Assembly (NCBI GenBank): GCA_964596065.1
Contig: CAZQSM010000001.1
Coordinates: forward strand, 69,818 to 133,817
Direction: 5' to 3'
Source of the DNA: an uncultured Chlorobiaceae bacterium
Lineage (GTDB): Bacteria > Bacteroidota > Ignavibacteria > UBA10030 > SZUA-254
DNA: 64,000 bases
A program made the translations under genes and the position numbers. Shown here in pieces: positions 4,267-57,012 of this stretch. The notes beneath the pieces are model-generated. The model had not been told where the DNA came from. It ran no database searches and was given only the letters and a program-made list of their open reading frames with translations. How positions within the stretch are numbered: position 1 is the stretch's first letter; each line of letters starts with the position of its first letter.

Positions 4267-6414
4267 GTGGAACTCAGTATCACTCTCGGCTGCAGCGTTT
4301 TCGCTCTCCTCTTCGCGCTCTATCTCTCACGATGGGTCCTCCGCCAGGATGACGGCACTCCGGCGATGCGGACGATCTCCGATGCCATCCGGGAGGGCGC
4401 CGAGGCGTTCCTTTCCAGGCAATACCGGACCATCCTGCTCCTCACCGTGCCGGTGGCCGCGGTCATCTACATCCTCTACGCGTTCATCAGGCCGGCGTCG
4501 CCCCACGACGCCGTTCCGGTGTCCGACCTCGCCCTCTACACGGCGGGGTCGTTCATCTTCGGCGCGATCTGCTCGGGCGTCGCTGGGTACGTCGGGATGT
4601 ACGTCTCCATCCGGGCGAACATCAGGACAGCGTCGGCGGCCCGGACCAGCATCAACCGGGGCCTGCGCATCGCGCTGCGCGGAGGCGCTGTCTCGGGGCT
4701 GTTCGTCGTGGCGATGAGCCTCCTCGGCGTGGGGGGACTCTACCTCCTCCTCTCCAGGCTCGGGGTGACCGACCACGACATCCCGCTCCTGATCGTCGGC
4801 TACGGATTCGGCGCCAGCTTCGTCGCGCTCTTCGCCCAGCTCGGCGGGGGCATCTTCACCAAGGCGGCCGACGTCGGGGCCGACCTGGTGGGAAAGGTCG
4901 AAGCGGGTATCCCGGAAGACGATCCGCGCAACCCCGCGGTCATCGCCGACCTGGTGGGCGACAACGTCGGAGACTGCGCCGGGCGCGGTGCCGATCTCTT
5001 CGAGTCGACCGCCGCCGAAAACATCGGGGCGATGATCCTCGGCGCGACGCTCGCGGCGAACGCCCAATCCCAGATGGGGATCACCTTCGCCGGGGGGGTG
5101 GTAGGGGTAATGCTCTTCCCGCTCGTCGCGCGGGCGTTCGGGCTCCTCGCGTCGATCATCGGCGTGATGGTCGTGAAGACGACCGAGGACGGCGACCCGA
5201 TGGAGGCGCTGAACAAGGGTTTCTACCTGACGACCGTCCTCGCGGCGATCGGGTTCGGCGTCGGCTGTTACTGGCTCCTCGACACCCCCCAGGCCCCGCA
5301 GGCCTGGTGGCATTTCTGGCTCTGCGGCCTCGTCGGGCTTGCGACAGCGATGGCATTCGTGTACATTACCCAGTATTACACCGAATACAAGTATCGTCCG
5401 GTGAAAGAGATCGCAGTCGCGTCACAAACGGGGCCGGCCACGAACATCATCGCGGGGTTCGCCGTTGCGCTTGAGTGTACGGCGCTTCCGGTGATGGTCA
5501 TCTCCGCCGCCATCCTCAGTTCCTACCACATCGGGCTTTCGAGCGGCCTGCCGAACGCCGGGCTCTTCGGCACCGCCGTCGCGACGATGGGAATGCTCGG
5601 GACGGCGGCGTACATCCTCGCCATGGACACCTTCGGCCCGATCGCAGACAACGCGGGGGGCATCATCGAGATGAGCCAGCAGCCCGAGGAGATCAGGAAG
5701 AAGACCGACCGGCTCGACGCCGTCGGAAACACCACGAAGGCGCTGACGAAGGGATACGCGATCGGCAGCGCGGCCCTGGCGGCGTTCCTCCTCTTTTCAG
5801 CGTATCTTGACGAGGTCGAACACTACAATCCCGGATTCGACCGCGTCATCAACATCGCCGAGCCGGAAATCTTCGTCGGTGGACTGCTCGGGGCCATGCT
5901 CATCTTCCTCTTCGCGGCGCTCGCCATCAGGGCCGTCGGGAAGGCCGCGTACTACGTCATCAACGAGGTCCGCCGCCAGTTCAGGGAAAACCCCGGCATC
6001 CTCCAGGGCACCGTCAAACCCGACTACCGGCAGGCCGTGGATATCGTGACGGCCGGAGCCCTCAAGGAAATGGTCCTTCCGGGAATCCTCGTCATCGCGA
6101 CCCCGATCGCGGTGGGCGTCATTTTCAAAATGTTCGGACTCGGCGCCCAGGCAGTGGCAGCCATGCTGATGGTCGGCACGATGGCCGGTATCCTGGTGGC
6201 CACGCTGCTCAATAACGGGGGCGGGGCATGGGACAACGCCAAGAAGTTCATCGAGACGGGCGAGTACGGCGGCAAGGGATCGGACACGCACAAGGCCGCC
6301 GTCGTCGGCGACACGGTGGGTGACCCGTTCAAGGACACGGCGGGGCCCTCCCTCCACGTCGTCATCAAGCTGCTCAGCACGATCACGCTCGTGCTCGCGC
6401 CGTTTTTTCTTTAG
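4267..6414 (+). CDS. hppA: Membrane-bound proton-translocating pyrophosphatase, K+-independent type
   Basis: 715 aa, GTG start. Motifs GDNVGDCAGRGADLFES, DAVGNTTKALTKGYAIGSAAL (Lys in GNTTKA marks K+ independence), GDTVGDPFKDTAGPS. Confidence 0.95.
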   Translation: MELSITLGCSVFALLFALYLSRWVLRQDDGTPAMRTISDAIREGAEAFLSRQYRTILLLTVPVAAVIYILYAFIRPASPHDAVPVSDLALYTAGSFIFGAICSGVAGYVGMYVSIRANIRTASAARTSINRGLRIALRGGAVSGLFVVAMSLLGVGGLYLLLSRLGVTDHDIPLLIVGYGFGASFVALFAQLGGGIFTKAADVGADLVGKVEAGIPEDDPRNPAVIADLVGDNVGDCAGRGADLFESTAAENIGAMILGATLAANAQSQMGITFAGGVVGVMLFPLVARAFGLLASIIGVMVVKTTEDGDPMEALNKGFYLTTVLAAIGFGVGCYWLLDTPQAPQAWWHFWLCGLVGLATAMAFVYITQYYTEYKYRPVKEIAVASQTGPATNIIAGFAVALECTALPVMVISAAILSSYHIGLSSGLPNAGLFGTAVATMGMLGTAAYILAMDTFGPIADNAGGIIEMSQQPEEIRKKTDRLDAVGNTTKALTKGYAIGSAALAAFLLFSAYLDEVEHYNPGFDRVINIAEPEIFVGGLLGAMLIFLFAALAIRAVGKAAYYVINEVRRQFRENPGILQGTVKPDYRQAVDIVTAGALKEMVLPGILVIATPIAVGVIFKMFGLGAQAVAAMLMVGTMAGILVATLLNNGGGAWDNAKKFIETGEYGGKGSDTHKAAVVGDTVGDPFKDTAGPSLHVVIKLLSTITLVLAPFFL

Positions 6415-27848: not shown

Positions 27849-28592
27849 ATGTGCGGACGGTTCACCATCACGACGGACAGGGTCGAATTCATCCTGAAGA
27901 AGTTCCACGCCATCCCTGCCACCGGTTTCAACGGGATCACGCCGCGGTACAACGCCTCCCCGGGGCAGCTTGTCCCCGCCATCGTCGCGAAGGAGGACGG
28001 GGTCCGATACCTCACCGACGTCCTCTGGGGCTTCGTCCCCCCCTGGGGGGAGGAGAAGGGGGAGGCGGGATACCAGATCAACATCCGCGACGATACGATC
28101 GCGCGCAACAAGTTCTTCCGGTCGCGCCTCCTCTCGGGCCGCTGCGTCCTCCTGGCGGACGGATTCTACGAGTGGCGGAAGCCGCCCGGCTTCGAGCACC
28201 TCCCACGCGGGAAGAGGCTCCCGAAGGGGGTACGGAAAGTTCCGCACAGGATCGTCCTCTCGGACCGCAAACCATTCGCCCTCGCCGGACTCTGGCGCAC
28301 TGTCGACATCAATGCAAAGCACGTCCTGACCGCGGGGATCATTACCACGTCCCCCAACGCCCTGGTCGCGCCGATCCATGACCGGATGCCGGTGATCCTC
28401 GACGACCGCGATCTTTCGCTCTGGCTCGACCCCCGCTCCGACGACTTCGACGCGCTCCACAGCCTGCTCGACCCATATCCCGCCGGGGAGATGGAGGCCT
28501 ATGCGGTTTCCGACGCGGTGAACAACAGCCGGAACGACGTCATCGCCTGTATCGCCCCGGCGGATGATCCGCCGGCTCCGCGGAAGCGTTGA
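27849..28592 (+). CDS. yedK: SOS-response-associated peptidase (SRAP / YedK / HMCES family), abasic-site sensor
   Basis: Begins MCGRFTI (catalytic Cys2 after Met1), about 247 aa, conserved SRAP core. True start 12 nt after the GH13 stop. The 3' end overlaps the convergent PolB gene by about 53 nt. Confidence 0.85.
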   Translation: MCGRFTITTDRVEFILKKFHAIPATGFNGITPRYNASPGQLVPAIVAKEDGVRYLTDVLWGFVPPWGEEKGEAGYQINIRDDTIARNKFFRSRLLSGRCVLLADGFYEWRKPPGFEHLPRGKRLPKGVRKVPHRIVLSDRKPFALAGLWRTVDINAKHVLTAGIITTSPNALVAPIHDRMPVILDDRDLSLWLDPRSDDFDALHSLLDPYPAGEMEAYAVSDAVNNSRNDVIACIAPADDPPAPRKR

Positions 28593-30912
28593 CCGCCGCG
28601 TCAGGCCACGCCACCACCGACTCCGGGGCGGCGACCCTCTCCGGCCGGCCGCCGCGACCGACCGTCGAACGCCTCCCGCCGGACCGGCGCCCATTCACCC
28701 CGTAGATCTCCGCGAGCTTCGCCCGGTCGTATCCGAACGGCGAAAGGAGGGTCTCCACCGCTTTCAATAAAAACTCGGTGTATTTTTCGATGTCGTACCC
28801 GTCCCAGTGCTGGTACGTGAGCAGGCTCTTGGCCTTCTGGGGATCGCGCCTGCCGCTCTGGTCCACGATGATGTAATCGATGACTTCGCCCGCCTTTACC
28901 GTCACGCCGAACGCCGCGAGTTCCCGCACCACCATCGCGCTCAGGTTGTTGGTGACATATTCGTCCGCCTCCTTCTGGACCCGACGGCGGAGCACGAGCT
29001 GTTTCGGGTCGGCGCGGCCTGCGCGCAGTTCGTTCAGGTAGAAACCAGCCTCGCGGATCAGTTCGGGGGCCCTGGCGGCGATCTCCCGGACGTCCTTCAT
29101 CTCCGACATCAGTTCCAGCAGCCGCGCCTGCATCGTCTTGACGAACCAGGGGGTGTCCTTGCGGCGCACCTCGATTCCCCTGGTCTTCATCTCGCCGTGG
29201 GCGTACCACCCCGCGTACTTTCCGGACGTGGGGATGCCGGGGTCGGTCTTCGATGAAGGGAAGAGGAGCCAGGTGTACATCCCCTCGAACGAGACGGTGA
29301 CGCCGACTTCGTCCCTGATCTCCTGGCAGAGCCTGAGGTACTCCTCCCGGGTCGCCCCCGGCTTTTTGAGCCAGAGGCAGTCGATGATGGCGTGCACCAG
29401 GTGAAAGCCGCCGGCCTCGGCGATTTCCTTCGCCCGCAGGAGCGCCTCGCGCGAATACGCGTTCACCGACTCGTGCGCCTCGATCCTCCCGAAGCGCGCG
29501 TTCTTGTACCCGAGGTAGCCGAAGCAGGTCACGAGCATCCACTTGAGCGCGTTCTGCCTCCGGTCATACTTCCGGTACTCGGCGAGGGTGGGGGCGTTCT
29601 TCCTGCGCATCTTGTAATACGCCCGCTTCTCGAGGACCGGTTTGAGCGTCGCCGGAACGATCCCTTTCCGCCGCTCGCAGATCGTGTATCCCAGCTCCGG
29701 CACCTTCCGGTTGTCGCAGCAGGGGCAGTTGATCGTCTCCGGGCTGATGTTGTGCAGTTCCATCAGGCTCGGGTACATGCTGGCGAAATCCAGCTCGGCG
29801 ACCTCCTCGTGGTATCCCATCTCGGGCATGAAGACCAGACCGCCCCGGTCGCTCAGCAACAGCTCGTCGGCGCTCTTGAAATCCTCGCCCTCCTTCTTTT
29901 CGGCGGGGATCAGGATGTTGTTCCGGTACGCGTAGCTCATCTGCATGCTGGCGAGCCCCGTGCCGATGGCCGCCCGGGACTGCTTCTGCATCGGGAGCTG
30001 GGTGAGGCGCGCCAGTTCGATCACCCCCTCGATGTCCGATTCCCCCATGATGAAGCTGTTCTCCGAGTCCATATGCCAGCGGCCGGCCAGCATGAAGGCG
30101 GCGTCGCGGTGGATGATCTGGCCGTAGGTCCAGTAGCTGCGCTCCTTCGTGGTGAAGTACTCCCGCGACCGGTCCCGGTTCAGCAGGAGCGGCACGCGGT
30201 GGCGCAGCGAAGCGTTCTGGATGGTGGGGAGGAGGGTGGCGTCGCCCCACGCCGTCAGGATGATGTCGGGGTCGTACTCGTGCAGGTGCCAGTTGAACGA
30301 CTCCAGGATCGACACGGCGTCTTCCCCCTCGAGCGCGTGGGTCGCGCCGTCGTAGTGCAGTTCGAGGTTCAGCGTCCGGAAGAACTTCGACGGGACGTCT
30401 GCCCCGCCGTTGGTGATCCGCAGGATCCTGAGGTCGGGGAGGGCGTAGTCCCGGGCGTCGAAGCTGTCGCGAACCCCGATGCGCTTCAGCGTCCCCGCGC
30501 CGTCGACGGTGAATTCGCAGCGCGCCAGGGGGAAGACCTGCCGGTCGTAGAGGTACATCTGCGCCACGGGGATGTTGCTGTTGTAGAACGCGAAATGGGG
30601 GAAGAACTTCTGCAGCGCCGAGACGCAGCGGTTGAACTGCAGGGGGTCCCGGACCGTGACCTCCTCCACCTGCCACGCCTGGCCGCTGAAGAGCTCCGTC
30701 TTCACCGCCGTCCCGAGCGTGACCGGCAGGCCGCGCACGAGCGCCGGGAGCCGGAGCGCGTCGCGCCGGTCGAGGCGGAGGTAGAACGAGGGGGCGAAGG
30801 GGTCGACATAACTGCGCGCGGCGCCGTTATCGTCGAGGAGCCAGACGGTCATCCCGCCTGCGACCGGATAGGCGTCGAAGAACCAGCCGTCAATCGTGGC
30901 CACCGGCGTCAC
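28540..30912 (-). CDS. Archaeal-type family-B DNA polymerase homolog with degenerate exonuclease and polymerase motifs (predicted catalytically inactive or impaired)
   Basis: 790 aa. Motif A LDFASMYPSLM intact. KxY region TRGIEVRRKDTPWFVKTMQARLLE strongly conserved. Exo I reads LRILRITNG (Asp/Glu replaced by Arg/Thr). Exo II reads DPDIILTAWGDATLLP (Asp to Leu). Motif B reads KWMLVTCFGYLGY (the NSxYG residues are altered). Motif C reads HAIIDCL instead of YxDTDS. Confidence 0.8.
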   Translation of the reverse strand: MTPVATIDGWFFDAYPVAGGMTVWLLDDNGAARSYVDPFAPSFYLRLDRRDALRLPALVRGLPVTLGTAVKTELFSGQAWQVEEVTVRDPLQFNRCVSALQKFFPHFAFYNSNIPVAQMYLYDRQVFPLARCEFTVDGAGTLKRIGVRDSFDARDYALPDLRILRITNGGADVPSKFFRTLNLELHYDGATHALEGEDAVSILESFNWHLHEYDPDIILTAWGDATLLPTIQNASLRHRVPLLLNRDRSREYFTTKERSYWTYGQIIHRDAAFMLAGRWHMDSENSFIMGESDIEGVIELARLTQLPMQKQSRAAIGTGLASMQMSYAYRNNILIPAEKKEGEDFKSADELLLSDRGGLVFMPEMGYHEEVAELDFASMYPSLMELHNISPETINCPCCDNRKVPELGYTICERRKGIVPATLKPVLEKRAYYKMRRKNAPTLAEYRKYDRRQNALKWMLVTCFGYLGYKNARFGRIEAHESVNAYSREALLRAKEIAEAGGFHLVHAIIDCLWLKKPGATREEYLRLCQEIRDEVGVTVSFEGMYTWLLFPSSKTDPGIPTSGKYAGWYAHGEMKTRGIEVRRKDTPWFVKTMQARLLELMSEMKDVREIAARAPELIREAGFYLNELRAGRADPKQLVLRRRVQKEADEYVTNNLSAMVVRELAAFGVTVKAGEVIDYIIVDQSGRRDPQKAKSLLTYQHWDGYDIEKYTEFLLKAVETLLSPFGYDRAKLAEIYGVNGRRSGGRRSTVGRGGRPERVAAPESVVAWPDAAVNASAEPADHPPGRYRR

Positions 30913-31174
30913 CGGGCGCTTCGACCGTCCGCACGTACTGCGCGGTCTCGAGGTATTTGATCTTCTTGTACTGCTCGAGCAGCATGCTCATGAAGATCGA
31001 TTCGAGCGGGAGTTCGCTCGCGATGAAGGCCCCGGCGGCCAGGTGGAGTTTCGGCGCGCGCCACATCTCGTCAAAGAGCTCCTGGTCTTCCTTCCGGAGG
31101 GCCCGCCGGAACTTGCTCCAGGCCTCCCTGTTCCGGTCGATGAGCAGCGTGAAGGTGTCGTTGTTGCGTCCCAT
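30890..31174 (-). CDS. Small hypothetical protein (94 aa) between the ImuA-like gene and the PolB homolog
   Basis: Balanced, helical-looking composition (REAWSKFRRALRKEDQELFDEMWR...). Overlaps the PolB start by 23 nt and the ImuA-like ORF 3' end by about 104 nt. An alternative start at Met37 (about 31066) would remove the upstream overlap. Confidence 0.4.
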   Translation of the reverse strand: MGRNNDTFTLLIDRNREAWSKFRRALRKEDQELFDEMWRAPKLHLAAGAFIASELPLESIFMSMLLEQYKKIKYLETAQYVRTVEAPGDAGGHD

Positions 31175-31880
31175 GAGGGGTGCTCCGTTGCTGGTTCGGT
31201 GTCTGGTGCAGGTCCCGGTGCAGGTCCTGGTCGAGGTAAAAGTCCGCGCCGTCGTGCCCCAGCAGCAGCGCCTCGTCCGCGCCGCGCCGCACCAGGCCGA
31301 AGAGGTCCGGTTTTCCCGGCGGGGCCGCCCGGCCCACGTCCACGTCGGCGATCAGCACGTGCGCGCCCCCGCGCGCGAGCGCCGCGAAGGTCCGCATCAC
31401 GCGGCCGAGGCTCTCCCGGCACTCGGAAGGCCTGACCTGCTCGTCGTAGTAGGTGTCGAGGAGGCCGGTCACGACGACCAGCGGGCAGGGGACGCGGGCC
31501 AGGAAACGGGGGAGCTTCGACGTGACGGCCTCCTCCGTCTGGAACGCCGTGAACGACCGGGTGACGTGGATCCGGGCCAGGGTTTCCTTCGGGGGGAGCC
31601 CGAGGAACGACGACAGCCGGGAAATGATATAGCTGTTGAAGCGCATCGATCCGTCGATGACGGCGACGGGGCGTTTCGAGGCGCAGGCGAACAGGAGGGC
31701 GGCCGTATAGACCGACGAGTGGCCGTGGAGCAGGTGGACCGCCCCCGGAAACCCCAGGAACCGGCCCGCGGCCGGGCCGAGGCCGGCAAGGGGCGTAAAA
31801 CGGGAGGATTCCGTCTGTCCGAAATATACCGGCGAATGCATCGGGAGGAGTGTGATTTGTTCTCCCGGATGATACGACAT
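31071..31880 (-). CDS. ImuA/SulA-like inactive RecA-fold protein
   Basis: The pattern SRFTPLAGLGPAAGRFLGFPGAVHLLHGHSSVYTAALLFACAS matches the ImuA-style degenerate P-loop region (no GKT/S). PLVVVTGLLDTYYDE is a Walker-B-like strand. The C-terminal about 50 aa are low-complexity. The true start may be Met14 (see promoter feature). Confidence 0.45.
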   Translation of the reverse strand: MSYHPGEQITLLPMHSPVYFGQTESSRFTPLAGLGPAAGRFLGFPGAVHLLHGHSSVYTAALLFACASKRPVAVIDGSMRFNSYIISRLSSFLGLPPKETLARIHVTRSFTAFQTEEAVTSKLPRFLARVPCPLVVVTGLLDTYYDEQVRPSECRESLGRVMRTFAALARGGAHVLIADVDVGRAAPPGKPDLFGLVRRGADEALLLGHDGADFYLDQDLHRDLHQTPNQQRSTPHGTQQRHLHAAHRPEQGGLEQVPAGPPEGRPGAL

Positions 31881-31897
31881 ATTTGTCGCATTGTCAA
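31869..31897 (-). promoter_or_regulatory. Sigma70-like promoter TTGACA-17-TATCAT overlapping the annotated ImuA-like start
   Basis: In gene orientation: TTGACA (revcomp of 31892-31897), a 17-nt spacer, then TATCAT (revcomp of 31869-31874). The -10 lies inside the first annotated codons, which suggests a leaderless start or a downstream start at Met14. Confidence 0.4.
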
Positions 31898-31928
31898 TAG
31901 ACGTACGATAAATTTGTCGTCGACAAAA
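31881..31928. promoter_or_regulatory. Candidate operator: ATTTGTCG repeats, including a 7-1-7 palindrome TTTGTCG-T-CGACAAA (31913..31927)
   Basis: ATTTGTCG occurs at 31881-31888 (in the promoter spacer, abutting the start codon) and at 31912-31919, 31 bp apart. The second copy forms a perfect inverted repeat with CGACAAA at 31921-31927. The surrounding region is AT-rich. Confidence 0.5.
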
Positions 31929-32067
31929 TGAGCGTAATTCGGGAAAAACGTGCCGTCGTGGGCGAAATGGAGCGGGAAGGGACGGTTCGGTGTGATGCGC
32001 GTCAACCGACGTAACGAAGCGAGCAGTTATTTTAATTTATTGAAAAAAAGATACACGACACCTTTGT

Positions 32068-32448
32068 ATGGGTACCCAGCAGTTACTCCTCATCATCGTC
32101 GGGATCATCATCACGGCCATCGGCATCGCCGTGGGTATCCAGCTGTTCGGCGCCTCGAGCACGTCGTCCAACAGGGACGCGCTGATCAACGACATCAACA
32201 ACCTCGCCGCCAACGCGAAGCAATACAGGACCAAGCTGCGGTCGATGGGCGGCGGGGGGGGGAGTTACGTCGGATATACCGTGCCGCCGAAGCTGGTGAG
32301 CAATGACGACGGGACGTTCAGCGCCGTGGTACAGGCGGCGAGCGTCGTGATCACCGGGACCTCCGCGCTCGGGTTCGGGACCGTGTCGGCCACCATCGAC
32401 ACCGCGGGAGCCGCGGGGAACTGGACCTACACGGGTCAGTTCCAGTAG
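32068..32448 (+). CDS. Small secreted/membrane-anchored protein with pilin-like hydrophobic N-terminus and Gly/Ser/Thr-rich body
   Basis: N-terminus MGTQQLLLIIVGIIITAIGIAVGIQLFGASSTSS lacks the canonical G-F-T-L-I-E prepilin motif. Preceded by an AT-rich promoter-like stretch (ttattttaatttattgaaaaaaagatacac). 126 aa. Confidence 0.4.
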   Translation: MGTQQLLLIIVGIIITAIGIAVGIQLFGASSTSSNRDALINDINNLAANAKQYRTKLRSMGGGGGSYVGYTVPPKLVSNDDGTFSAVVQAASVVITGTSALGFGTVSATIDTAGAAGNWTYTGQFQ

Positions 32449-39098: not shown

Positions 39099-41486
39099 TC
39101 AGCCGCCCCCCGTATCGAGCCAGATCGTCGGCTCGGGGGTGGACGCATCCTCGTCCCCTTCCTCCGACACGTCACCCCCCGAGGGTTCGACCTTTTTCGT
39201 GAGGACCAGGATGCCCCGGGGACTGAACCCGAACAGGTCCTCGGGCGAAAAGATCATCCTGAAATCGGCCGGGGTGAAAAAGGGCTCGAACTTCCTCGAT
39301 AATTCTTCGAGCCGTTTCAGGTAGAAGGGAATGTTTTCATCTGGGGCCACCGGATCCCACTCGGACGAGAGCCGGCAATTGGCGAAATTCTGCCCTGAGG
39401 GGTCGTTTCCCGTAATGTAGAACGCGACCTTCTCACCTTTCCTCCACTCCCCCAGGACCCTCAACGCCGCCTCGTAGGGGGCCGATTTGTTCCGTTTTTC
39501 CTTCTTCACCGCCTCCTGATATTCTTCCGGCCCGTCCCTGAGAGTCTCCGTCCTCGAAAAGTCCTCGACCTGGAGCTTGTTCGAGGAGATGTCCCTGTGG
39601 AGATCCACGTATTCTCGATGGAGCCCTTCGATGTCCCCACGCAATATCGCTTCGATGCAATTCCTGACATACTTCCTCCCGAACCTCTCGATGCTGCGGG
39701 AGGTGAGGGATGACCCCTTCAACGTGATTTTTCCGTCGTACCCTTCGAGGGCGTAATTTTTCGGTTTGTAGCTGAGCATCTTCCGGTAGCGGCCATTCAG
39801 GGCGAGCGAAATCCCCTCCGGGAGCGTGGATGCGATGCTTTTGACGAACCTGGACTCCTGCTCTTCCGTCCGGATGTTCGGCGGGGGGACGAAAAAGACA
39901 CCGTCGGTGTCGACCTCAACGACGGCGCCTTGTTTATCGACAATCGTCCGGATCAGTCCCCGGAGGAGTTCCTGGCCGCTTTTCGTGACCCGGTCGGCCG
40001 CGATGGTGTCGTTGAACAGGCCCCGGCCGTAACCGAGATATCCATAAAAAGAATTGATCAGAATCTTGAAAGAGGATTGAATGGCGTCGAGTTTGCCCTT
40101 CTCTGACAGGTCTTTGGCGGCCTTCATCTCCTTTTTCGCCTGAAGCCTCATCGTCGTCAATTCCCGGAGCAGCCCAGAAAATATACCGAGGGATTCGCTG
40201 TGGGGAGCGATCCCCTCGGTGAGCATCAGGGAGGGATAGAGCGATTCGACGTCGATGTCCAGGACGGGGCCGACGACACCGGTGAGGAACACGTCCGTGT
40301 ACCCGCCGGATGTCGGCCTGGTCGGCTCGGGTGACGGGACCGAGACGCGACGGCGGATGTATTCCCTGAGGAGGATCGACTCGATCTTCGTGGCGGAACC
40401 GTTGCGCGCGGCCGTCCCGTAGTTGAACGGGGTGAGCCTGGTGAGGTAAAAATGCGGTGGGGAGAGGAAGTCGCTCAGCTGCCGCGTCTCGTCGACGTCG
40501 TCGAGTGCGTACTCGGCGAGGAGGTCGGGTTCGTGGTCCCAGTGCCACGATATTCGATCGGGGTTGATGTACACGCGGTTTTCCCTCGCAAAACCAAAGT
40601 GTTGCGCCGCCTGCTTCAGGCCGTAACTCTCGAGTTTGCGCTTCGAATGGTCGTAGTTCTGGAGGAGTAGCCAGGTATCGATAATGTGCCGTCCGGGGAT
40701 GTCCAGGACCTGCACCTCCTGCGCCCGGTCTGTGCGCATCTGCCGCCCGTCGGTCGCCCTCATCCTGATCCCTTCACGGCCGAACTGCGGGTCCACCCCG
40801 TGAAGAGTGCAACGTCGCAGGATGTAGGGGAGGTCGAAGTTGTAGATGTTATGCCCCTCGATCACGTCGAAGTCCTTCTCCCGGATGACCGCGAAAAGCC
40901 TCCGGAGCATGTCGGGCTCGGAATGGGCGCGGCCGTCGAGGACCTCCCGGTATCCGCGGTTGTCCGAGAGGGCGATCAGGATGATCCGGTCCTCCGGCCT
41001 GGCGGGGTTGCTGAAACTCCGCGCCTGGGAGGAATATGTCTCGATGTCGAGCTGGAGGCGGTGAAGGTCGTCGAATTCCATCCCGCCGAAGAGCGTCATT
41101 CCGCTCTGAAGGAGGTACTGCGACACCGGATCGGTGCGCAGGAGGAGGGAGGGTACGTCCTGGAAGGAGCCGGCGCCGGCCTTGAGGCGGTCGTTGTGCC
41201 TCTCGATGACATGCCGCACGGCGTCCCACATCTCTGACCAGCGCTGGAAGGCCGCGAGAAAACGGTAGTAGTGGCCTCCGTCGAGCGTTTTCAGCCAGTG
41301 CTTTTTCCGGAAACCCTCGAGAAGCGTGGAGTCGGAGAGGTGGAAAAAGGGGAAGAATTCCTCGTCCCTCGCGACAACGCCGTCGGACGTCCGCTTGTAG
41401 AGGCGCATCCGGTCGTCCGCCACCGGATGCACCGCCAGGAGACCCGGTTCCGGATTATGCCCGTAGAGCAGCGATTGGTCGCTCAT
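39099..41486 (-). CDS. polB: Family-B DNA polymerase (Pol II-like) with intact 3'-5' exonuclease and polymerase motifs
   Basis: Exo I LQLDIETYS. Exo II GHNIYNFDLPYI. Exo III YALDDVDET. Motif A LDIDVESLYPSLM. Motif B KILINSFYGYLGY. Motif C VVEVDTDGVFF. KxY motif YKPKNYAL. 795 aa. Confidence 0.9.
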   Translation of the reverse strand: MSDQSLLYGHNPEPGLLAVHPVADDRMRLYKRTSDGVVARDEEFFPFFHLSDSTLLEGFRKKHWLKTLDGGHYYRFLAAFQRWSEMWDAVRHVIERHNDRLKAGAGSFQDVPSLLLRTDPVSQYLLQSGMTLFGGMEFDDLHRLQLDIETYSSQARSFSNPARPEDRIILIALSDNRGYREVLDGRAHSEPDMLRRLFAVIREKDFDVIEGHNIYNFDLPYILRRCTLHGVDPQFGREGIRMRATDGRQMRTDRAQEVQVLDIPGRHIIDTWLLLQNYDHSKRKLESYGLKQAAQHFGFARENRVYINPDRISWHWDHEPDLLAEYALDDVDETRQLSDFLSPPHFYLTRLTPFNYGTAARNGSATKIESILLREYIRRRVSVPSPEPTRPTSGGYTDVFLTGVVGPVLDIDVESLYPSLMLTEGIAPHSESLGIFSGLLRELTTMRLQAKKEMKAAKDLSEKGKLDAIQSSFKILINSFYGYLGYGRGLFNDTIAADRVTKSGQELLRGLIRTIVDKQGAVVEVDTDGVFFVPPPNIRTEEQESRFVKSIASTLPEGISLALNGRYRKMLSYKPKNYALEGYDGKITLKGSSLTSRSIERFGRKYVRNCIEAILRGDIEGLHREYVDLHRDISSNKLQVEDFSRTETLRDGPEEYQEAVKKEKRNKSAPYEAALRVLGEWRKGEKVAFYITGNDPSGQNFANCRLSSEWDPVAPDENIPFYLKRLEELSRKFEPFFTPADFRMIFSPEDLFGFSPRGILVLTKKVEPSGGDVSEEGDEDASTPEPTIWLDTGGG

Positions 41487-56163: not shown

Positions 56164-57012
56164 ATGAATACCTTTAAAACCGTCGTCCTGATGAGCTCGA
56201 TGATGGTGCTCCTCCTCATCGTCGGCGCGTCGCTCGGGGGCGAACAGGGAATGATCATCGCGTTCGTCATCTCTCTCGCGATGAATTTTGGATCGTACTG
56301 GTTCTCGGACAAAATTGTCCTCCGCCTCTACCGGGCGACGCCCGCGACGGAATCATCCCATCCCGGCTATTACGCGGCGGTGGCGCGCCTCGCGTCACAG
56401 GCTGGCCTCCCGATGCCGGCGGTGTACGTCCTCCCCTCCGAGGCGATGAACGCATTCGCCACCGGCAGGGACCCTGAGCACGCGGCCGTGGCGGTCACCG
56501 AGGGCCTCCTCCGGACCCTCCAGCCGGACGAACTCGAGGGGGTGATCGCGCACGAACTCGCGCACGTCGAGAACCGCGACATCCTGACCGGCACCATCGC
56601 GGCCACGCTCGTCGGGACCATCACCTTCATCGCACGGATGGCGGGCTGGGCGGCGATCTTCGGCGGCGGGCGCGACAGGCGCGACTCGAACGGGTTCGCC
56701 GATCTCGCGATGCTGATCATCGCCCCCCTCGCCGCGGTGCTCATCCAGATGGCCATCTCCCGATCGAGGGAGTTCGCCGCCGACGCGGGCGCGGCCCGGA
56801 TCACCGGGAGGCCGCTCTCGCTGGCGAACGCCCTCAGGAAACTCGCCCAGGCCTCCGAACGGCGGGTCGCCTTGCCGGCGAATCCGTCGACGGCCCATTT
56901 GTTCATCGTCAACCCGCTCCGGGGAGGAGGAATCATGAAGCTTTTCTCGACCCATCCCCCGATGGAAGAACGGATCGAACGGCTCGACCTCATCGCCCGC
57001 GGCGGGGCCTGA
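56164..57012 (+). CDS. htpX: Protease HtpX (M48)
   Basis: [10 protein letters not shown] zinc motif. Four TM helices. 282 aa. Confidence 0.85.

What the first reader, a model, noticed from the sequence alone, without database searches (positions are those of the whole stretch)
31869..31930. Candidate operator: ATTTGTCG direct repeats 31 bp apart plus a TTTGTCG-T-CGACAAA palindrome interlaced with a near-consensus sigma70 promoter
In a roughly 67% GC genome the 50 bp upstream of the ImuA-like gene are AT-rich. They contain ATTTGTCG at 31881-31888 (inside the spacer of a TTGACA-17-TATCAT promoter, abutting the start codon) and again at 31912-31919. The second copy is the left arm of a perfect 7-1-7 inverted repeat (31913-31927). 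A repeat sitting in the promoter spacer plus one upstream palindrome is a typical repressor-operator geometry. The sequence does not match the LexA boxes I know (CTGT-N8-ACAG, GAAC-N4-GTTC, TGTTC-N4-GAACA and others). It may be a lineage-specific SOS operator or a dedicated regulator site. The -10 element lies inside the annotated first codons, so the gene may start at Met14 (31841) or be leaderless.
Basis: seen in the sequence. Interest (0 to 1): 0.6.

Follow-up and report, generated by a model that had tools for sequence, protein, structure and literature searches.

The report
SOS-type operator of a PolB2 polymerase operon
The AT-rich stretch is a strongly conserved promoter with two repressor-binding palindromes, probably the DNA-damage (SOS) switch of an error-prone polymerase operon in Ignavibacteria-like bacteria, and its box sequence has not been published as far as I could find.

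Summary
The repeats, the 7-1-7 palindrome and the TTGACA-17-TATCAT promoter are all at the stated coordinates.

What is conserved is a 16-20 bp palindrome, (AT)ACGACA-N4-TGTCGT(AT), present twice with centres 31 bp apart:
- O1 (31874-31889) fills the -35/-10 spacer.
- O2 (31905-31920) lies upstream of the -35.

This promoter-plus-operator design is near-identical in 24 related loci with 43-81% protein identity.

The gene is not imuA. The operon is the published iRadA-PPB2-PolB2 "PolB2 mutasome" operon, and iRadA starts at Met14 (31841).

A metagenome scan found the same box in the same promoter position upstream of other PolB2 operons, dinB, DUF72 and small genes.

The likely binder is a ~216-aa repressor with a phage-CI-type HTH and an S24 self-cleaving peptidase domain (a "non-canonical LexA"). 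Its gene sits inside box-controlled PolB2 operons in two loci and next to them in two more. In 7 of 7 loci it has boxes in its own promoter.

The half-site equals the Caulobacter DriD (WYL) box, but spacing and geometry differ.

Main gap: the repressor gene was not found in this window, and binding is untested.

The parts
31874..31889 (.). Operator O1. It is a 16-bp palindrome (minus strand GCGACAAATATGTCGT; with flanks, 31872-31891 reads ATGCGACAAATATGTCGTAT). It occupies the whole 17-bp spacer, and its last three bases (TAT) are the first three of the -10.
   Evidence: Scores 22.0 bits. GACA-N4-TGTCGTA is exactly conserved at this position in 21 of the first 23 loci, the window included, and in 3 further close relatives and two TF-linked loci.
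31905..31920 (.). Operator O2. It is a 16-bp imperfect palindrome (minus strand ACGACAAATTTATCGT) at about -60 to -41, with its centre 31 bp upstream of O1.
   Evidence: Scores 25.3 bits. The ACGACA arm is conserved at a fixed 31-bp offset in the orthologous loci. In metagenome promoters of this type, the upstream half-site lies at 31-32 bp in 17 of 39 cases.
31921..31927 (.). Extra half-site CGACAAA. At most it is a weak third box (31920-31935).
   Evidence: Scores only 8.6 bits. It is absent from L001-L005, L160, L162 and L163.
31892..31897 (-). -35 hexamer TTGACA.
   Evidence: Invariant in 21 of the first 23 loci.
31869..31874 (-). -10 hexamer TATCAT. The transcription start is predicted near 31862, which gives a leader of about 20 nt (inferred).
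   Evidence: TAT is invariant, and the hexamer is TATCAT, TATACT or TATCTT in relatives.
The true start is the ATG at 31841.
   Evidence: No Pfam or NCBIfam hit. One homolog carries a precomputed Rad51 domain. Frame analysis supports the start. The family is described in PMC11791011.
30890..31174 (-). PPB2 (DUF8156, PF26485), a 94-aa protein with the conserved MGRNNDTF N-terminus.
   Evidence: Present in 22 of 23 loci. PF26485 is precomputed on its homologs and is named DUF8156. PMC11791011 describes the 'MGRT' motif.
28540..30912 (-). PolB2, a B-family polymerase with no hit to the exonuclease domain. The exact start codon is uncertain.
   Evidence: PF00136 at 5e-37 with no DNA_pol_B_exo1 hit. 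NCBIfam PRK05761-type PolB at 6e-116.
27849..28592 (+). SRAP gene (abasic-site protection), convergent on PolB2. It is a conserved neighbour with no box of its own.
   Evidence: PF02586 at 3.5e-56. Convergent in 8 loci and in L160, L162 and L163.

Best explanation
The region 31869-31920 is the promoter-operator of the iRadA-PPB2-PolB2 translesion ('PolB2 mutasome') operon.

Proposed mechanism:
1. A dimeric repressor recognises the palindrome ACGACA-N4-TGTCGT.
2. One dimer on O1 covers the whole -35/-10 spacer and the first bases of the -10, which excludes RNA polymerase from an otherwise near-consensus promoter.
3. A second dimer on O2 sits three helical turns upstream on the same face of the DNA. 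It probably binds cooperatively and tightens repression.
4. The most likely repressor is a ~216-aa protein with a phage 434/P22-C2/CI-type HTH and a LexA/UmuD-type S24 self-cleaving domain, that is, a non-canonical LexA.
5. After DNA damage, RecA-ssDNA would trigger its self-cleavage and de-repress the operon, together with dinB, DUF72 and the repressor's own gene.

Shown:
- the sequence anatomy;
- deep conservation of the promoter and both boxes;
- the same box in the same promoter position upstream of DNA-damage genes elsewhere;
- linkage of the repressor gene to the operon;
- boxes in the repressor's own promoter;
- intact S24 catalytic and cleavage residues.

Inferred:
- that this protein binds the box;
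- cooperativity between O1 and O2;
- RecA-dependent cleavage;
- damage induction;
- the presence of the repressor in this organism.
For: Conservation:
- 21 of the first 23 loci, the window included (43-81% protein identity, GC 39-64%), carry exactly TTGACA-N4-GACA-N4-TGTCGTA, with a second ACGACA box 31 bp upstream.
- Three further close relatives and two TF-linked loci carry it as well.
- Information content drops to background immediately outside the -60 to -7 block.

Chance:
- Only these two sites in 64 kb score at least 20 bits.
- The pattern is expected 0.19 times.

Regulon. Many hits share the design TTGACA|box|TATnnT. Downstream genes include:
- iRadA/PPB2/PolB2 operons in L046, L051, L055, L092, L109, L122, L136 and L142;
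- the Y-family polymerase DinB in L094 and L125, with the same box (downstream of both divergent -10s) in L084;
- DUF72 in L108 and L124.

Regulator:
- The HTH_XRE+S24 gene lies inside box-controlled operons in L055 and L136.
- It lies 1-2 kb from the cassette in L155 and L157.
- In 7 of 7 independent TF loci, all 12 GAC-W6-GTC boxes found in 56.7 kb lie in the TF's upstream region.
- The catalytic Ser and Lys and the (A/G)-G cleavage site align with those of LexA and lambda CI.
- The C-terminal half matches solved LexA and UmuD structures, and the N-terminal half matches 434 and P22 C2 repressors.

Literature:
- PolB2 operons are induced by DNA damage in archaea, and their bacterial neighbourhoods are enriched in lexA, SRAP and DUF72 (PMC11791011).
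- CI-type S24 repressors run the SOS response in Bacteroidetes (PMC8565304).
Against: - No repressor gene was found in the 64-kb window, nor within about 4-8 kb on either side of the operon in three close relatives. Its presence in this organism is therefore assumed.
- No binding, cleavage or expression data exist.
- The published non-canonical LexA motifs (GGA-N5-TCC, CTAA-N5-TTAG, TTAC-N5-GTAA) are different.
- The half-site is identical to the box of an unrelated regulator, DriD.
- No recA or uvr gene was seen among the box-associated genes.
Confidence: 0.72

Rival explanations
1. The boxes are bound by a DriD-like wHTH-WYL regulator that senses ssDNA directly, so control is SOS-independent. 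Here it would act as a repressor, as the WYL proteins BrxR and CapW do, or as a combined repressor and activator.
For: - The DriD consensus is ATACGAC-N7-GTCGTAT with an AT-rich centre. The DriD authors themselves allowed gaps of 6 or 7 when searching homologs (PMC10853764).
- The sites here read ATACGAC-N6-GTCGTAT, for example in L001.
- DriD controls DNA-damage genes and has a DriD box in its own promoter, positioned so that the authors suggest negative autoregulation.
- WYL repressors exist.
Against: - The spacing is N6, not N7.
- DriD boxes sit where the -35 would be, in promoters that lack a -35. Here the -35 is consensus and the box fills the spacer.
- A motif search found no WYL-like gene in any held locus. 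This was a crude regular expression only.
- An S24 repressor gene, not a WYL gene, is the one linked to the operon and preceded by boxes.
Confidence: 0.08
2. A canonical LexA (winged-helix plus S24) of this lineage binds the boxes, which would make this simply another divergent LexA box.
For: - One related locus, L020, has a canonical lexA directly upstream of iRadA, overlapping it by 4 nt. It passes the NCBIfam LexA equivalog cut-off at 159.8 bits against 110.95.
- lexA is enriched near bacterial PolB2 operons.
- LexA motifs are known to diverge widely.
Against: - L020 is one of the two orthologous loci that lack the ACGACA box. Its lexA promoter carries a different palindrome, TGTATAA-ATTA-TTATACA.
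- No canonical LexA is encoded in the window.
- Every box-containing locus that also carries an S24 gene has the CI-type protein.
Confidence: 0.08
3. The conserved block is only a strong promoter (UP element, -35, spacer, -10), or the binding site of some other dedicated local regulator, and has no link to DNA damage.
For: - The AT-rich O2 lies where an UP element would be.
- Only one operator pair occurs in the 64 kb.
- No regulator gene is in the window.
Against: - Sigma70 promoters do not require a dyad-symmetric GAC...GTC in the spacer, yet both arms are invariant across 39-64% GC genomes.
- The same box recurs upstream of dinB, DUF72 and the S24 repressor gene itself.
Confidence: 0.07

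Closest known systems
Non-canonical (phage-CI-type HTH + S24) LexA regulons of the Bacteroidetes (Sanchez-Osuna et al., NAR 2021, PMC8565304)
   Same: - The repressor has the same architecture.
- It is autoregulated through palindromic boxes in its own promoter.
- Several promoters carry two boxes.
- The regulon is centred on translesion polymerases and includes SRAP-type neighbours.
- It occurs in lineages where the canonical LexA is absent or replaced.
   Different: - The motif is ACGACA-N4-TGTCGT (GAC-N6-GTC). It is not GGA-N5-TCC, CTAA-N5-TTAG or TTAC-N5-GTAA.
- The host is an Ignavibacteria-like lineage, which that study does not mention (0 occurrences).
- The main target is the PolB2 operon, which that study does not mention either.
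DriD box of Caulobacter crescentus (WYL activator; PMC10853764, PMC13004042)
   Same: - The 7-base half-site ATACGAC/GTCGTAT is identical.
- The centre is AT-rich.
- It controls DNA-damage genes.
- DriD also has a box in its own promoter.
   Different: - The gap is N6, not N7.
- The box sits in the spacer of a consensus promoter (repression geometry). It does not replace a missing -35 (activation geometry).
- The linked regulator is an S24 repressor, not a WYL protein.
iRadA-PPB2-PolB2 'PolB2 mutasome' operon (Timinskas et al., CSBJ 2025, PMC11791011)
   Same: - The gene order is iRadA-PPB2-PolB2.
- PPB2 has the conserved MGR(N/T) N-terminus.
- The PolB has no hit to the exonuclease domain.
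- SRAP, DUF72 and lexA-like genes lie in the neighbourhood.
   Different: That work describes proteins and neighbourhoods only. The word 'promoter' does not occur in it. The cis-regulatory element described here adds to it.
Lambda-type cooperative operators and double SOS boxes
   Same: Two dyad-symmetric sites lie on the same DNA face for a CI/LexA-like S24 repressor, and one of them overlaps the core promoter.
   Different: The centre-to-centre distance is 31-32 bp, about 3 helical turns. By my recollection the distance between lambda OR1 and OR2 is about 24 bp. Cooperativity here is inferred, not shown.

Membership tests
SOS-type operator of an S24 self-cleaving repressor | A dyad-symmetric site overlaps the core promoter of the regulated gene. 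| tested here: met
   O1 fills the 17-bp spacer and shares TAT with the -10.
SOS-type operator of an S24 self-cleaving repressor | The same motif occurs in the repressor's own promoter (autoregulation). | tested here: met
   In 7 of 7 HTH-S24 loci from relatives, boxes lie only in the TF upstream region. This could not be tested in the window organism, where the TF gene was not found.
SOS-type operator of an S24 self-cleaving repressor | The motif recurs upstream of DNA-repair and translesion genes. | tested here: met
   It precedes PolB2 operons, dinB (IMS family) and DUF72. recA and uvr genes were not seen.
SOS-type operator of an S24 self-cleaving repressor | The repressor binds the site and is cleaved on RecA activation, and the genes are induced by DNA damage. 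| not testable with these tools
   This needs EMSA, a cleavage assay and transcriptomics.
Non-canonical LexA of Bacteroidetes (PMC8565304) | The repressor has a CI-type multi-helical HTH plus an S24 domain with catalytic Ser and Lys and a cleavage site. | tested here: met
   Precomputed Pfam hits are HTH_3, Phage_CI_repr and Peptidase_S24.
Non-canonical LexA of Bacteroidetes (PMC8565304) | The binding motif is GGA-N5-TCC or CTAA-N5-TTAG. | tested here: not met
   The motif here is ACGACA-N4-TGTCGT. The strings CGAC and GTCG do not occur in that paper.
Canonical LexA box | The site matches a published LexA motif, and a winged-helix LexA is present. | tested here: not met
   The site matches none of the motifs listed. 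There is no LexA hit in the window. The linked TF scores 68 bits against the 110.95-bit LexA equivalog cut-off, and only its C-terminal half matches.
DriD (WYL) box | The half-sites are ATACGAC/GTCGTAT with an AT-rich centre. | tested here: met
DriD (WYL) box | The gap is 7 bp, the box occupies the -35 position of promoters that lack a -35, and a wHTH-WYL regulator is present. | tested here: not met
   The gap is 6 bp. A consensus TTGACA is present and the box lies in the spacer. No WYL-like ORF was found in the held loci, by regular expression only.
imuA-imuB-dnaE2 mutagenesis cassette | ImuA is followed by ImuB (an inactive Y-family polymerase) and DnaE2 (C-family polymerase). | tested here: not met
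   The first gene has no Pfam or NCBIfam family hit. The downstream genes are DUF8156 and a B-family polymerase.
iRadA-PPB2-PolB2 operon | The gene order is inactivated RadA-like gene, small PPB2 with an MGR(N/T) N-terminus, then a PolB lacking an active exonuclease. | tested here: met
   Exonuclease inactivity is inferred only from the missing exonuclease-domain hit.

The most novel reading that the evidence does not exclude
ACGACA-N4-TGTCGT is a previously undescribed SOS box. It would be read by a further clade of phage-CI-type 'LexA' proteins in Ignavibacteria-like and other uncultured lineages. Its regulon would be built around the archaeal-derived PolB2 mutasome, dinB, DUF72, small coiled-coil proteins and toxin-antitoxin modules. 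The half-site has converged on that of the unrelated ssDNA sensor DriD. This raises the possibility that two different damage sensors, an S24 repressor and a WYL factor, can read the same DNA word.
Probability: 0.55. Interest if true: 0.6.

Novelty: new variant of a known kind. Interest (0 to 1): 0.55.

Why it matters
- It would supply the missing cis-regulatory element for the bacterial PolB2 mutasome operon, which so far has been described only at the level of proteins and gene neighbourhoods.
- It would extend the non-canonical LexA type of SOS control to Ignavibacteria-like lineages, with a new binding motif.
- It would give a simple search pattern (TTGACA|ATACGAC-N6-GTCG|TAT) for reconstructing the DNA-damage regulon of lineages that are mostly uncultured.
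- The PolB2 operon is controlled by the ACGACA box in most loci and apparently by a canonical lexA with a different palindrome in L020. A third palindrome sits in the spacer in L022. This would be a clear case of convergent rewiring of SOS control around one horizontally acquired operon.

Tried and rejected
The 8-mer and the 15-mer are not enriched in the window. The 7-1-7 palindrome is not conserved.
- **Extra operator sites in the window.** The only other GACA-N4-TGTC is at 56306. It lies inside the htpX-like coding sequence, where it encodes SDKIVL, so I treat it as chance.
- **PPB2 as an operon-encoded DNA-binding autoregulator (ribbon-helix-helix idea).** The AlphaFold model is all-helical (pLDDT 69) with no PDB fold match. 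The protein is a published polymerase partner.
- **Bacteroidetes-type -33/-7 promoter (TTTG / TAnnTTTG) as the explanation for the TTTG repeats.** What is conserved is TTGACA and TATCAT at 17 bp.
- **An RNA element.** There is no credible Rfam match. The hairpins formed by the palindromes lie upstream of the predicted transcription start.
- **Balneolaeota LexA motif (TTACACATATTTTWTACATA).** It is different.
- **Looking up the window's own contig through P0001.** The protein is not on record.
- **Searching for the repressor next to the operon in close relatives.** It is absent within about 4-8 kb on either side.
Full report
**1. The observation**

ATTTGTCG lies at 31881-31888 and 31912-31919. 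TTTGTCG-T-CGACAAA lies at 31913-31927. On the minus strand, TTGACA (31897->31892), 17 bp and TATCAT (31874->31869) match the consensus at 11 of 12 positions, and this is the only promoter-like site in 31500-32300.

The 8-mer occurs 3 times against 1.67 expected, and the 15-mer with up to 3 mismatches occurs 3 times against 2.2 expected. The window is about 64-65% GC.

**2. What the gene and operon are**

The minus-strand ORF 31071-31880 has no Pfam or NCBIfam family. Its homologs come from Bacteroidota, Ignavibacteria and 'Chlorobiaceae' MAGs. The database copy (P0001, 256 aa) starts at Met14, which is 31841.

Two further genes follow it:
- A 94-aa gene at 30890-31174 has an invariant MGRNNDTF N-terminus and is present in 22 of 23 loci. 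Its homologs carry PF26485 (DUF8156).
- A B-family polymerase at 28540-30912 has no exonuclease-domain hit.

This is the published iRadA-PPB2-PolB2 'PolB2 mutasome' operon. That operon was acquired from archaea, where it is damage-inducible. Bacterial neighbourhoods are enriched in lexA, SRAP and DUF72 (PMC11791011). An SRAP gene converges on PolB2 here (27849-28592) and in relatives. The cassette is therefore not imuA-imuB-dnaE2.

**3. The real anatomy, from phylogenetic footprinting**

I fetched 22 orthologous loci with 43-81% identity to iRadA and 39-64% GC. Their upstream regions align without gaps. With the window, 21 of 23 loci contain exactly TTGACA-N4-GACA-N4-TGTCGTA, preceded at a fixed 31-bp offset by a second (A)CGACA-W4-T(A/T)(T/A)C box. 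Three further close relatives and two regulator-linked loci show the same design. Conservation drops to background just outside about -60 to -7.

The unit is a palindrome, (AT)ACGACA-N4-TGTCGT(AT).
- O1 in the window is 31874-31889. It occupies the whole spacer, and its terminal TAT is the start of the -10.
- O2 is 31905-31920.

The 7-1-7 palindrome is one arm of O2 plus an extra half-site (31921-27). That half-site scores only 8.6 bits as a third box and is absent from all eight close relatives.

Parsed correctly, the sites are highly non-random:
- CGAYAWWWWTGTCG is expected 0.19 times and is found at both sites, and 0 of 100 shuffles reach that number.
- Only these two positions in 64 kb score at least 20 bits.
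- The one other GACA-N4-TGTC, at 56306, lies inside an htpX-like coding sequence.

**4. The start codon**

The ATG at 31880 lies inside O1. It is out of frame with the conserved start in L002, L003 and L004, where the leader carries 10- or 20-nt insertions. The close relatives use GTG at the position of 31841. The -10 is therefore upstream of the gene. The predicted transcription start is near 31862 with a leader of about 20 nt, which is an inference.

**5. The box elsewhere**

The extended half-site gave a pattern with 14 specified bases, ATACGAC-W6-GTCGTAT. Many hits have the same design, TTGACA|box|TATnnT, often with a weaker box 31-32 bp upstream (17 of 39 cases).

Genes downstream include:
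- eight further PolB2 operons, some preceded by a Zn-ribbon gene and DUF72 (L046);
- the Y-family polymerase DinB (L094, L125), with the same box also shared by divergent dinB and XRE-family promoters in L084;
- DUF72 (L108, L124);
- a family of 61-65-aa coiled-coil proteins, in some loci next to a DUF3276/PurA-like gene;
- Panacea/SocA genes.

This gene set looks like a DNA-damage regulon.

**6. The regulator**

tblastn with LexA, lambda CI and UmuD against all held DNA found two things.

First, a CI-type HTH + S24 protein (215-217 aa) lies inside box-controlled PolB2 operons, at different positions in the two loci. In L055 it is upstream of iRadA, and in L136 it is downstream of PolB2.

Second, a canonical LexA lies directly upstream of iRadA in L020. 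L020 is one of the two loci without the box. Its lexA promoter carries another palindrome, TGTATAA-ATTA-TTATACA.

The CI-type protein belongs to a tight family. There are 722 homologs, the top 120 are 71-98% identical, and they come from Bacteroidota and Ignavibacteriales MAGs. JGI often labels them 'repressor LexA'.
- Its catalytic Ser and Lys and its (A/G)-G cleavage site align with those of LexA and CI.
- Its C-terminal half matches solved LexA and UmuD structures, and its N-terminal half matches 434 and P22 C2 repressors.
- It fails the canonical LexA equivalog cut-off.

I examined seven independent loci that encode it. In these, all 12 GAC-W6-GTC boxes found in 56.7 kb lie in the gene's own upstream region. 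The typical module has two parts. ACGACA-N4-TGTCGT lies in the spacer of a leftward DUF72 or iRadA promoter. TTGACA-N4-TGTCAT overlaps the -35 of the repressor promoter, 32 bp away. The cassette is 1-2 kb from the repressor gene in L155 and L157.

Three things therefore hold together: the motif sits in the repressor's own promoter, it sits in translesion-polymerase promoters, and the repressor gene is linked to the regulated operon. That is the standard comparative-genomics signature of a LexA-type regulon. Non-canonical LexA proteins of this architecture are documented in Bacteroidetes, with different motifs (PMC8565304).

**7. The DriD resemblance**

The half-site is identical to the Caulobacter DriD box, ATACGAC-N7-GTCGTAT, which also has an AT-rich centre. 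Among DNA-binding-site papers in the searchable library, only the DriD papers pair these two strings. Three things differ here:
- The gap is 6 bp.
- The promoter has a consensus -35 and the box lies in the spacer. DriD boxes replace a missing -35 and activate transcription.
- No WYL gene was seen in any held locus, although only a crude regular-expression search was run.

I keep DriD as a minor rival and as a notable case of convergence.

**8. Mechanism proposed**

A repressor dimer on O1 occludes the spacer and the -10 of a near-consensus promoter. A second dimer on O2, three helical turns upstream, probably binds cooperatively. DNA damage leads to RecA-stimulated self-cleavage of the repressor and de-repression of the PolB2 operon. 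The anatomy, conservation, regulon content, linkage and autoregulatory boxes are shown. Binding, cooperativity, cleavage and induction are inferred.

**9. Gaps**

The repressor gene is not in this window and is not within about 4-8 kb on either side of the operon in three close relatives. The window's own contig could not be looked up. No experiment bears on binding. recA and uvr targets were not seen, but the scan required a perfect box and was truncated.

**10. Verdict**

The element is real, is far above chance and is a conserved promoter-operator. The parsing of the repeats, the gene name and the likely regulator need correcting.

Against the literature I could search, the operon and the repressor architecture are known, and the box sequence and its link to the PolB2 operon are not. 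I rate it a new variant of a known kind, of moderate interest.

Noticed in passing
window 39099-41486 (-): A second B-family DNA polymerase (795 aa), this one with an exonuclease-domain hit (PF03104 plus PF00136). L017 also carries a paralog. It may belong to the uncharacterised 'G3' PolB group that one study found in all Chlorobi species it analysed (PMC12926913).
   Followed up: partly
window 31842-31868 (-): The predicted 5' leader can form a hairpin, CGGGAG...CUCCCG, that ends directly at the start codon. The complementary arms are also present in L001. There is no Shine-Dalgarno sequence.
   Followed up: no
window 31071-31174 (-): The iRadA ORF overlaps the PPB2 start by 104 nt in another frame. 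Relatives show overlaps of 0-31 nt. The PolB2 paper reports iRadA-PPB2 fusions and internal ribosome-binding sites.
   Followed up: no
window 56307-56320 (+): A perfect GGACAAAATTGTCC palindrome with the GACA-N4-TGTC core lies inside an htpX-like coding sequence, where it encodes SDKIVL. It is probably chance.
   Followed up: yes
window 32068-32448 (+): A divergent 126-aa gene with a hydrophobic N-terminus resembling a pilin (MGTQQLLLIIVGIIITAIG...). It has no Pfam hit but is conserved as the upstream neighbour in close relatives (L160, L162, L163).
   Followed up: partly
L020 4190-4260: A canonical lexA overlaps iRadA by 4 nt. Its promoter carries a perfect 7-4-7 palindrome, TGTATAA-ATTA-TTATACA, over the -10. 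This is a candidate canonical LexA box for that Chlorobiaceae-labelled MAG.
   Followed up: partly
L022 about 4880-4920: The Zixibacteria PolB2-operon promoter has a different palindrome, AAACAAATGTTT, in the TTGACA/TAGTCT spacer. This would be a third operator type in the same position.
   Followed up: no
L029 4020-4090; L068 3500-3565; L110 1450-1545; L137 4650-4740: The identical 20-mer ATACGACAAAAATGTCGTAT occurs as 3-5 iteron-like tandem copies at about 23-bp spacing on phage- or plasmid-like contigs that also encode a DnaB-like helicase. The binder is unknown.
   Followed up: no
L023 6073, L028 212, L031 1076, L036 1868, L081 205: The same promoter-plus-box design precedes toxin-antitoxin-like genes: a likely HicA/HicB pair (judged from the sequences alone) on IMG/VR contigs, and SocA/Panacea-domain proteins (Pfam hit).
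   Followed up: partly
L039, L057, L059, L060, L077, L089, L091, L098, L126, L147: A family of 61-65-aa coiled-coil proteins (...EYRKV.SMLSMMEKGT...) lies directly downstream of a perfect box. In three of the loci a DUF3276/PurA-like gene lies divergently on the other side of the box. These proteins could be damage-induced small effectors, such as cell-division inhibitors.
   Followed up: no
L157 1317-1945: A MazE/PIN toxin-antitoxin pair is inserted between PPB2 and PolB2 inside the operon.
   Followed up: no
L046 1579-2733: In a second lineage (54-59% GC) the box-controlled operon begins with a 79-aa Zn-ribbon protein and a DUF72-like gene, ahead of iRadA-PPB2-PolB2. A YIP1-like membrane protein is transcribed divergently.
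   Followed up: partly
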